From: Escherichia coli
GTDB taxonomy: Bacteria; Pseudomonadota; Gammaproteobacteria; Enterobacterales; Enterobacteriaceae
Reading direction: 5' to 3' (one strand)
Assembly (NCBI RefSeq): GCF_009931435.1
Contig: NZ_CP043414.1
DNA length: 64,000 nucleotides
The position numbers and the translations under genes were made by a program. Positions 42,865-44,018 of this stretch are shown piece by piece. Each line of letters starts with the position of its first letter. Position 1 is the stretch's first letter. The notes beneath the pieces were generated by a model. The model did not search any database, was not told the DNA's origin, and worked only from the letters and a program-made list of their open reading frames with translations.

Positions 42865-43851
42865 TTATGGAGCAACGTGATGGTACGATTCATTCCATTC
42901 TTCGTTCTTTCTGAGCATTGCGTTCAGGATAGTCAGCAGCTTGCGTATACAGGCAACCAGCGCCACTTTTTTGGGTTTTCCTGCGGCAAGCAGTCGCATG
43001 TAAAACACCTTTATTACCGGGTTAAAGCGGGTTGCGACAAGCGCTGCCATGTACAGGGCTGTTCGCACACCAGCCCTGCCGCCAAAGATGGTTCGTCGCC
43101 CTCTCATCGTGCCCGAGTCCCGGTTTACTGGAACCATACCGACAAGCGCACTGATTTCACGCCTGGAGAGGTTACCCTGTTCGGGTACTTCCGCCAGCAG
43201 CGCAGCAGCCGTCATGGTGCCAACACCTTTAATATTGCTCAGTCGCTTAGCAAGCTCTTTGAAGTGGCTATGGATATGGCTGTTCATGTCAGCATCTAGT
43301 CGCGCAAGCTCGTCTTCCAGTGCTTTGATGATGATATTAATGCTTTTCCTGTTCTATGGATGAGCAGGGTGCAACCGGTTTCTCTCGGCAACCAGCATCG
43401 TAATCAACTGCCGCCTACGAACTACCATTGCAGTGAGAACCTGACATTCAGTATCCGGCAGTGCTCTGATAAAGCGTTCCCGCTCCGGATGCCGGTTGAG
43501 AACCTCAGCCATCTGGTAAAGCACTCTGGCATCAATACTATCAGTTTTCGCGAGGTATCCCATGGTGCGGGCAAAGTCACGAGCTTGTCTGGGGGTAACC
43601 ACGGCAAGCTCAAAACCTTCTGCCTGAAGCGCACAGACTATGGCGGTTTCAAGTCCTCCAGTGGCTTTCATTAAAACCAGCGCAATGGCGTACATTCTCA
43701 ACTCAGCAATGATGGCCTCAAAGCCATCACTGTCATTGCCGACAGAAAATTGTTCAATAGCGCTGCTGGCGGCAATATCCAGTATCGCTTTCGAAACATC
43801 GATACCCACACAAAGTGAACCTGGCTGACTCATGATTACCCATCCTTGCAA
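42865..43851 (-). pseudogene. IS110-family transposase with in-frame amber stop codon (at 43354-43356)
   Basis: N-terminal domain (VGIDVSKAILDIA…, 165 aa) and C-terminal domain (…[17 protein letters not shown]…) are in the same frame separated by a single TAG. Confidence 0.75.
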
Positions 43852-44018
43852 ATGCGTTATGGCGTACTGACAACTGTTCGGGTTTCAGATGAGTGGCTCA
43901 GTGTATGCGCCATTCGCTGAGCTACGGGCTATGAACCCCTTGAGGGATCGGGCTGCATACACCTTGCCAAATCTAATCACAGTTATTTTAACCAATTGTC
44001 AAGATACAAGGAGGAGAT

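What the first reader, a model, noticed from the sequence alone, without database searches (positions are those of the whole stretch)
42865..44018. IS110-family element with an amber-interrupted recombinase and a candidate bridge-RNA region in its 5' non-coding end
The two transposase ORFs (43354-43851 and 42865-43287) are in the same frame, separated only by a single TAG at 43354-43356, so this is a nonsense-interrupted gene rather than a frameshift. IS110/IS621-type elements are reported to encode a structured guide (bridge) RNA in the non-coding end upstream of the recombinase. The roughly 170 bp at 43852-44018 is the corresponding region here and is otherwise unexplained non-coding sequence. 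Full-length recombinase could be made in an amber-suppressor background.
Basis: partly seen in the sequence, partly recalled or inferred. Interest (0 to 1): 0.6.

Follow-up and report, generated by a model that had tools for sequence, protein, structure and literature searches.

The report
Dead IS110 element with bridge RNA
This is an ordinary, decayed copy of a known kind of RNA-guided jumping gene (IS110 family) in E. coli: its guide ("bridge") RNA region is still recognisable, but the enzyme gene has a stop codon and has lost a catalytic residue, so it is a fossil and not a working or new system.

Summary
One in-frame TAG (43354-43356) interrupts an IS110-family recombinase gene on the minus strand, which runs from ATG 43833 to 42865. 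The sequence upstream of the gene is the element's left end.

- **Element limits.** It spans 42842-44010 (1169 bp) with a CT core at both ends. The same ends occur in more than 25 relatives from other genera. An exact empty site occurs in 3042 of 5426 E. coli genomes.
- **Bridge RNA.** 43828-43993 (minus strand) is a bridge-RNA homologue. Its consensus fold has two stem/internal-loop modules with strong covariation. It is 92% identical to a sequence in Durrant et al.'s published bridge-RNA alignment. A covariance model built from this subfamily also finds the IS621 bridge RNA in the correct register.
- **Guides.** The right target guide matches core plus right flank 7/7. The donor guides match the element's own ends (7/7 and 4/4).
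- **Decay.** The catalytic Glu (IS621 E60) is Lys in every allele at this locus. The left target guide's core-pairing bases are AA. The element is single-copy in all 665 carrier genomes; 644 share both flanks. All 11 coding SNPs are nonsynonymous.

Amber suppression would therefore give a full-length protein that is very probably inactive. This is a known kind of element and of low interest.

The parts
42842..44010 (-). Whole IS110-family element, 1169 bp counting the CT core at both ends
   Evidence: The ends CT|TGTATCTTG... and ...AAGACAGTTG|CT are conserved in relatives at unrelated sites in Citrobacter, Xenorhabdus, Photorhabdus, Salmonella, Serratia, Klebsiella and Trabulsiella. One Xenorhabdus contig (L015) spans just the IS, end to end. 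The empty site (flank + one AG + flank) is found as a single ungapped 402-nt match in 3042 E. coli genomes.
44009..44010 (-). Left copy of the CT core dinucleotide
42842..42843 (-). Right copy of the CT core dinucleotide
43834..44008 (-). Left end (LE), 175 nt of non-coding sequence upstream of the recombinase gene
   Evidence: Homology to relatives starts exactly here.
44001..44006 (-). TATCTT, the inferred -10 box of the promoter that would form across the RE-LE junction of a circular copy (-35 TTTACG in the right end, 17-nt spacer)
   Evidence: By position this corresponds to the IS621 junction promoter TTGCAG-17-TATTAT. It is only 8/12 to consensus. In the integrated state the -35 position reads AGAATT, and the promoter scan finds no sigma-70 site upstream of the RNA. 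Inferred, not shown.
43828..43993 (-). Bridge-RNA homologue, 166 nt, overlapping the start codon
   Evidence: Covariance model R1 gives 181 bits and is the only significant hit in the 64-kb window. Consensus fold. Covariation controls. It is 92% identical to a row of Durrant's bridge-RNA alignment.
43895..43968 (-). Target-binding module: basal stem GGC..GGUGUAUGC.GCC / GGCGCAUACAC..GCC, an internal loop, and an apical hairpin GGGUU/AGCCC
   Evidence: Seven of the 15 basal-stem pairs show compensatory double changes.
43940..43948 (-). Left target guide (LTG) position, AUCCCUCAA
   Evidence: The register is fixed by the R1 alignment to the IS621 LTG AUCGGGCCU and by L018, which matches its target 9/9. 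Here only 4 of 7 bases match the left flank (the CCTC next to the core). The two core-pairing bases are AA, where relatives have CU, CC, CA or UU.
43917..43923 (-). Right target guide (RTG), AGCUCAG
   Evidence: Its reverse complement CTGAGCT equals the core CT plus the 5 nt of the right flank, 7/7. Across relatives, cognate pairs average 4.77/5 and non-cognate pairs 1.62/5; none of 231 non-cognate pairs reaches 5.
43828..43894 (-). Donor-binding module: stems ACUCAU/AUGAGU (which includes the AUG start codon) and ACCC/GGGU around an internal loop
43871..43877 (-). Left donor guide (LDG), ACAGUUG
   Evidence: Identical to the last 7 nt of the right end (ACAGTTG|CT). It aligns to the IS621 LDG ACAGUAU.
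43845..43848 (-). Right donor guide (RDG), CAAG, which overlaps the Shine-Dalgarno AAGGA
   Evidence: Its reverse complement CTTG equals the core CT plus the first 2 nt of the LE. It is identical to the IS621 RDG.
42865..43833 (-). Recombinase gene, 322 codons plus stop, a pseudogene
43354..43356 (-). Amber codon 160 (TAG)
   Evidence: Relatives have CAA or CAG (Gln) here. Of 665 E. coli genomes carrying the locus, 468 have the exact TAG 61-mer and 193 have TTG (Leu).
43666..43668 (-). Codon 56, AAA (Lys), at the position of the catalytic DEDD glutamate (IS621 E60)
   Evidence: Alignment with IS621. 101 of 120 homologues have Glu. All 16 proteins with Lys are the top-ranked E. coli hits, and every allele at this locus whose DNA was read has AAA. 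Relatives have GAA or GAG.
42844..42864 (-). Right end (RE), 21 nt

Best explanation
A 1169-bp IS110-family (IS110-group) insertion sequence inserted once at a CT dinucleotide between two overlapping zinc-ribbon genes of a CP4-like genomic island. It has since been inherited as an immobile fossil.

Its left end encodes a bridge-RNA homologue. In working relatives one internal loop of this RNA pairs with the target DNA on either side of the CT core. The other loop pairs with the element's own joined ends. The DEDD/Ser recombinase then exchanges strands at the core.

In this copy the RNA scaffold, the right target guide and both donor guides are intact, but three things are broken:
1. The recombinase gene carries an amber codon at position 160.
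2. Lys replaces the catalytic Glu.
3. The left target guide has lost its core-pairing bases.

Shown here: the element's limits, the empty site, the RNA structure and covariation, the guide matches and the lesions. Inferred: transcription of the RNA, which in relatives comes from a promoter formed only in the excised circle, and loss of activity.
For: - **Ends, core and empty site:**
- **Protein family:** NF033542 at 209 bits; PF01548 and PF02371 in near-identical proteins.
- **RNA structure:** the consensus structure has 97.5% of cells paired, against 30-47% when partners are slid. Ten pairs change on both sides, against 1-2 when slid, and 0 of 500 shuffles reach the observed values.
- **RNA homology:** the covariance model gives one hit in the window (181 bits) and finds the IS621 bridge RNA in the right register (18 bits, E 0.0086). 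The RNA is 92% identical to a published bridge-RNA row.
- **Guides:** RTG 7/7, LDG 7/7, RDG 4/4. The RTG co-varies with the flank across about 13 independent insertions.
- **Decay:** K56 at the E60 position, and E60 is essential in IS621. TAG at codon 160. LTG core bases AA. One copy per genome, always chromosomal, in 665 genomes, 644 of which share both flanks. All 11 coding SNPs are nonsynonymous. IS621, by contrast, has a median of 5 copies and up to 27.
Against: - No expression data exist. No sigma-70 promoter is detectable upstream of the RNA in the integrated state.
- The LTG matches the left flank only 4/7, which is within the non-cognate range, so the target-loop test is only half met.
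- The link to IS621 through the model is weak (18 bits), and model E-values are rough.
- 29% of genomes carry a sense codon (TTG) at position 160, so the ORF is intact in some strains, although still with K56.
Confidence: 0.9

Rival explanations
1. One reading: the element is still potentially active. The amber codon is a conditional switch, and full-length, working recombinase is made whenever the stop is suppressed or read through.
For: There is a single in-frame TAG. The family consensus residue at this position is Gln, which a supE-type suppressor would insert. The RNA scaffold and three of the four guides are intact.
Against: K56 replaces the catalytic Glu in every allele, including those without the stop, and E60 mutation abolishes IS621 activity. 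The LTG core bases are AA. No suppressor tRNA is in the window. The element is single-copy in 665 genomes, 644 of which share both flanks. There is no sign of purifying selection.
Confidence: 0.03
2. The element has been domesticated. The full-length but catalytically dead protein (the TTG/Leu-160 alleles), together with the RNA, acts as an RNA-guided DNA-binding factor, for instance regulating the neighbouring zinc-ribbon genes. The TAG allele in this window would be a null variant of that function.
For: K56 is shared by all alleles while D12, D98, D101 and S240 are kept. The locus persists in 12% of genomes. The stop codon has sense variants TTG (193 genomes) and TAT. TTG appears on more than one haplotype, but only in metagenome contigs.
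Against: 70% of carriers have the stop. All 11 coding SNPs are nonsynonymous, some of them next to catalytic residues (G10D, C8Y), which indicates no constraint. The multi-haplotype TTG evidence comes from short metagenome contigs that may be chimeric. In complete genomes one TAG/TTG mutation on the main haplotype is enough to explain the data. The LTG is degraded.
Confidence: 0.04
3. The upstream 175 nt is only a 5' UTR or promoter of the recombinase gene, or a promoter for the divergent zinc-ribbon gene, and has no guide-RNA role.
For: The Shine-Dalgarno sequence and start codon lie inside the 3' stem. No expression data are available.
Against: Compensatory changes occur in the stems. Loop sequences co-vary with the DNA flanking independent insertions and match the element's own ends. 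The region is homologous to the experimentally validated IS621 bridge RNA. No promoter is found on either strand.
Confidence: 0.02

Closest known systems
IS621 of E. coli (IS110 family, IS110 group) and its 177-nt bridge RNA (Durrant et al. 2024, PMC11208160; Hiraizumi et al. 2024, PMC11208158)
   Same: - A DEDD (RuvC-like) plus Ser (Tnp) recombinase.
- A CT core at both ends.
- A long LE and a short RE, with the RNA in the LE on the recombinase strand and ending at the start codon.
- The order is target loop followed by donor loop.
- The RDG is identical (UUUGCAAGG), the LE start is the same (TGTAT), and the LDG has the same form (ACAGUnn).
- The junction promoter has the same layout.
   Different: - Only 32% protein identity.
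- The element is 1169 bp against 1279 bp.
- The 5' stem-loop is much shorter.
- The RTG is 7 nt (core + 5) against 4 nt in IS621.
- The LDG's eighth base does not pair with the core.
- The targets are C/T-rich CCTC-CT sites and not REP elements.
- This copy is dead and single-copy, whereas IS621 has a median of 5 copies per genome.
The 1169-bp enterobacterial IS110 subfamily: relatives in Salmonella, Serratia plasmids, Citrobacter, Xenorhabdus, Photorhabdus and E. coli plasmid pN61. One relative at 83% identity is labelled ISKpn42 by NCBI. Rows of this subfamily appear in Durrant's Supplementary Data 1.
   Same: Same length, same ends, same RNA (89-92% identity to the published rows) and 77-91% protein identity. 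The Salmonella element has almost the same left loop: CGAUCCCUCCAG against CGAUCCCUCAAG here.
   Different: Those copies have an intact ORF with Glu at position 56 and Gln at 160, an LTG whose core-position bases are CU, CA, CC or UU, and occupy several different sites. The window copy has K56, an amber codon at 160 and AA at the LTG core, and sits at one fixed site.

Membership tests
IS110 family insertion sequence (IS110 group) | Recombinase with an N-terminal DEDD RuvC-like domain and a C-terminal Tnp domain | tested here: met
   NF033542 'IS110 family RNA-guided transposase' scores 209 bits against a cutoff of 140. PF01548 and PF02371 are recorded on a protein that differs by one residue.
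IS110 family insertion sequence (IS110 group) | Complete catalytic set (IS621 D11, E60, D102, D105, S241) | tested here: not met
   D12, D98, D101 and S240 are present, but the E60 position is Lys56. It is Glu in 101 of 120 homologues. This argues against activity, not against ancestry.
IS110 family insertion sequence (IS110 group) | A conserved core dinucleotide flanks both ends, insertion is at a single copy of that dinucleotide, and no other target duplication is made | tested here: met
   CT is present at both ends. The empty site has one CT and is otherwise colinear, as a 402-nt ungapped match.
IS110 family insertion sequence (IS110 group) | The long non-coding end lies upstream of the gene (IS110 group) and not downstream (IS1111 group) | tested here: met
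   The LE is 175 nt and the RE is 21 nt.
IS110 family insertion sequence (IS110 group) | Mobility: the same element at different sites | tested here: not met
   This sequence occurs once per genome, always chromosomal, in 665 genomes, and 644 of them share both flanks. Relatives do occupy many different sites.
Bridge RNA (Durrant et al. 2024) | Encoded in the non-coding end on the recombinase strand, about 150-200 nt, with two stem/internal-loop modules | tested here: met
   43828-43993 on the minus strand. Consensus fold and covariation: 10 pairs change on both sides, 97.5% of cells are paired, and 0 of 500 shuffles reach that.
Bridge RNA (Durrant et al. 2024) | The right target guide is complementary to the core plus the right flank | tested here: met
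   7/7 here. Across relatives, cognate pairs average 4.77/5 and non-cognate pairs 1.62/5.
Bridge RNA (Durrant et al. 2024) | The left target guide matches the left flank plus the core | tested here: not met
   4 of 7 flank bases and 0 of 2 core bases match (AA against CT). Relatives average 4.94/7 and have CU, CC, CA or UU at the core positions. This is read as decay after insertion.
Bridge RNA (Durrant et al. 2024) | The donor loop guides match the element's own right and left ends | tested here: met
   LDG ACAGUUG equals the RE end, 7/7. RDG CAAG is the reverse complement of CT+TG, 4/4.
Bridge RNA (Durrant et al. 2024) | Homology to an experimentally validated bridge RNA | tested here: met
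   Model R1 hits the IS621 bridge RNA at 18 bits, E 0.0086, with LTG, RTG, LDG and RDG in register. The RNA is 92% identical to a row of the published alignment. No Rfam family matched.
Bridge RNA (Durrant et al. 2024) | Transcribed, binds its recombinase and directs recombination | not testable with these tools
   No promoter is found in the integrated state. The junction promoter is inferred only.

The most novel reading that the evidence does not exclude
The sense-codon alleles at this locus (Leu-160 in 193 genomes, Tyr-160 in one contig) encode a full-length recombinase that lacks its catalytic Glu and has been co-opted, with its RNA, as an RNA-guided DNA-binding protein. Repeated conversion of the amber codon to sense codons would then reflect selection for that role.
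Probability: 0.04. Interest if true: 0.6.

Novelty: new member of a known kind. Interest (0 to 1): 0.15.

Why it matters
It matters little. The result shows that bridge-RNA annotation can be transferred to an unannotated, decayed IS110 copy, with element limits, guides and lesions mapped to the base. It also gives a natural example of how such an element dies: by a nonsense codon, loss of the catalytic Glu and loss of the guide's core pairing.

The subfamily may have minor practical value. Its compact 166-nt RNA and 7-nt right target guide mark it as a distinct set of orthologues for people engineering bridge recombinases, but intact relatives are the ones to use, not this copy.

Tried and rejected
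- **Rfam 15 scan** of 40000-47000 at E <= 10 found nothing relevant. Either no bridge-RNA family is in the library or none is close enough.
- **Durrant Supplementary Table 2** plasmid sequences were truncated and of no use. Table 1 and Data 1 supplied what was needed.
- **The genome-contig scan** returned only 17 loci, so I added loci through exact-protein look-ups.
- **My first two regex extractions** of the loops failed and were replaced by anchor-based extraction.
- **Alternative LTG registers** (a shift of +1, or a bulged T) could make the window LTG look better, but I rejected them. The IS621 alignment and the 9/9 case (L018) fix the register.
- **Recurrent amber-to-sense reversion on three haplotypes** was considered as a sign of selection. 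I did not adopt it. The extra haplotypes come only from short metagenome contigs, and sampling of complete genomes shows no window-haplotype TTG class.
- **An internal TTGACA at 43997-44002** was considered as a -35 box, but no usable -10 follows it.
- **The weak second R1 hit** at 19688-19827 (E 3.8) is noise.

Full report
**Observation.** Translating the minus strand from 43851 to 42865 gives one frame with a single internal stop, TAG at 43354-43356. The window is E. coli. Identical genomes annotate the gene (969 nt, starting at ATG 43833) as 'IS110 family RNA-guided transposase', a pseudogene with an internal stop. With the stop replaced, the protein scores 209 bits on NCBIfam NF033542 against a cutoff of 140. 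Near-identical database proteins carry PF01548 (DEDD_Tnp_IS110) and PF02371 (Transposase_20). Only the start codon (ATG 43833, not TTG 43851) and the outer limit of the non-coding end need adjusting.

**Element limits.** A relative with 74% nucleotide identity on E. coli plasmid pN61 aligns with the window from CT|TGTATCTTG to AAGACAGTTG|CT and no further. The same two ends, about 1169 bp apart, occur in relatives from Citrobacter, Xenorhabdus, Photorhabdus, Trabulsiella, Klebsiella, Salmonella and Serratia. All sit in unrelated flanks, and one Xenorhabdus contig spans just the IS, end to end.

In the window the element is 42842-44010, counting a CT at each end. I rebuilt the empty site as left flank + one AG + right flank (402 nt). 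It matches as one ungapped piece in 3042 of 5426 complete E. coli genomes. In two that I read, the junction in IS orientation is ...GCATATTTCCTC-CT-GAGTTGTCC..., and the two zinc-ribbon genes overlap by 13 nt. So 43834-44008 lies inside the IS and is its left end. Bases 44011-44018 are the neighbouring gene's ribosome-binding site.

**The RNA.** Durrant et al. (PMC11208160) showed that IS110 elements encode a bridge RNA in the left end. [quoted passage not shown] Those loops pair with the target and with the donor (the element's joined ends), and each pairing includes the CT core. Their supplementary files give the IS621 sequences and, through the library templates, the exact guide positions. 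Their covariation input already contains rows of the window's subfamily. The window RNA is 92% identical to one such row.

I aligned eleven distinct left ends. RNAalifold gives a basal stem (GGUGUAUGC.GCC / GGCGCAUACAC) around an internal loop with an apical GGGUU/AGCCC hairpin. A second module follows, closed by ACUCAU/AUGAGU (which includes the start codon) and ACCC/GGGU. On this structure 97.5% of cells are paired, against 30-47% when partners are slid by 1-3 columns. Ten pairs change on both sides, against 1-2 when slid. None of 500 shuffles reaches the observed values.

A covariance model built from this alignment finds one site in the 64-kb window, 43828-43993 on the minus strand, at 181 bits. 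It also finds all the relatives. In a real IS621 copy it finds the validated bridge RNA immediately upstream of the gene at 18 bits, E 0.0086, with the four guide segments in register. Rfam itself gave nothing.

**Guides.**
- Right target guide: AGCUCAG (43917-43923). Its reverse complement CTGAGCT is exactly the CT core plus the five bases to the right of the insertion. Across about 13 independent insertions the five non-core bases match 4.77/5 for cognate pairs and 1.62/5 for non-cognate pairs, and none of 231 non-cognate pairs reaches 5. Two further Serratia plasmid copies fit 7/7.
- Donor loop: it carries ACAGUUG, the last seven bases of the right end, and CAAG, the reverse complement of CT+TG at the left end. 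The latter is identical to IS621.
- Left target guide: AUCCCUCAA (43940-43948). This is the exception. Only the four bases next to the core (CCTC) match the left flank, and the two core-pairing positions are AA. Relatives average 4.94/7 and have CU, CC, CA or UU there. The closest relative, a Salmonella element, has AUCCCUCCA. Durrant et al. report that pairing to both strands of the core is strongly preferred.

**The protein is broken twice.** Aligned with IS621, the window protein keeps D12, D98, D101 and S240 but has Lys56 at the position of E60. Among 120 homologues, 101 have Glu. All 16 proteins with Lys are the top-ranked E. coli hits, including those without the stop codon. Every allele at this locus whose DNA I read has AAA, while relatives have GAA or GAG. 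Hiraizumi et al. (PMC11208158) show that E60 coordinates the catalytic Mg2+ and that mutating D11, E60, D102, D105 or S241 abolishes recombination. Amber suppression would therefore give a full-length but very probably inactive enzyme. No suppressor tRNA and no second IS110 recombinase gene lie in the window.

**Population picture.** The locus is in 665 of 5426 genomes, always once and always chromosomal, and 644 of them share both flanks. By exact 61-mer, codon 160 is TAG in 468 genomes and TTG (Leu) in 193. One metagenome contig has TAT. The wider family has CAA or CAG.

Among the four haplotypes read from complete genomes, all 11 coding differences are nonsynonymous. The neutral expectation is 76% per change, so P is about 0.05. 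There is no sign of purifying selection. IS621, by contrast, is found in 2239 genomes with a median of 5 and up to 27 places.

TTG also appears on the window haplotype and on a second haplotype, but only in short metagenome contigs that could be chimeric. A spread sample of complete genomes shows no such class. I therefore do not claim recurrent reversion.

**Expression.** In IS621 the promoter forms only across the RE-LE junction of the excised circle. The corresponding junction here would read TTTACG-17-TATCTT, which is 8/12 to consensus and conserved in several relatives. In the integrated state the -35 position is flank sequence, and the scan finds no sigma-70 site upstream of the RNA. Whether any RNA is made from this copy is unknown.

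**Verdict.** This is a fossil copy of a known kind of element. The suggestion that suppression could restore function is not supported. The family, its RNA and its mechanism are published, and the gene is already annotated as an RNA-guided transposase pseudogene. What is added here is the base-level anatomy of this unnamed 1169-bp subfamily member and its three lesions. Interest is low.

Noticed in passing
L012 (JAIJJM010000559.1, 'MAG: Collinsella sp.'): A 2.2-kb contig of a Collinsella metagenome-assembled genome has the same element, guide loops and immediate flanks as this E. coli locus. It is almost certainly E. coli contamination of the bin.
   Followed up: partly
L003 2473-2543 (E. coli fS54a, hha-HTH intergenic region of a related island): A solo fragment consisting of the first ~66 nt of a related left end, plus CT and a similar C/T-rich flank, with no recombinase gene. 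It is 88% identical to window 43951-44018 and gives a partial R1 hit at E 0.0036. It is probably the remnant of another, deleted insertion.
   Followed up: partly
window 42463-42855 and 44019-44423: The IS splits two overlapping zinc-ribbon genes (DUF7828/Zn_ribbon_11) that form one unit in 3042 genomes. The first gene now ends inside the IS (...TAQQLS* instead of ...TTQEEICEF*). The second is cut off from its upstream partner by 1.17 kb, so a polar effect is likely.
   Followed up: partly
window 43354-43356 and loci L008, L049-L052: Codon 160 is polymorphic: TAG in 468 genomes, TTG in 193, and TAT in one metagenome contig. TTG on the window haplotype and on the L006 haplotype is seen only in metagenome contigs. 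The direction of change and whether it recurred are unresolved.
   Followed up: partly
window 42865-43833 compared with L006, L007, L008: All 11 coding differences among four haplotypes are nonsynonymous and none is synonymous (P about 0.05 under neutrality). Some lie next to catalytic residues (G10D, and C8Y in database proteins).
   Followed up: yes
L038/L039 (Serratia plasmid CP053379.1): Two intact copies of a relative lie 3.6 kb apart on one plasmid, at near-identical targets (...TTTCACC-CT-TGCGG...). Both match the RTG 7/7, an example of an active relative.
   Followed up: partly
window 44714-46807: A pile-up of other IS debris lies next to the island: ISL3 fragments with internal stops, an intact IS30 (45656-46807, minus strand) and IS4 and other transposase fragments, followed by cobUST.
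   Followed up: no
window 51603-51678, 54012-54087, 58572-58647: Three tRNA-Asn (GTT) genes lie within 7 kb. This is a classic integration region for genomic islands.
   Followed up: no
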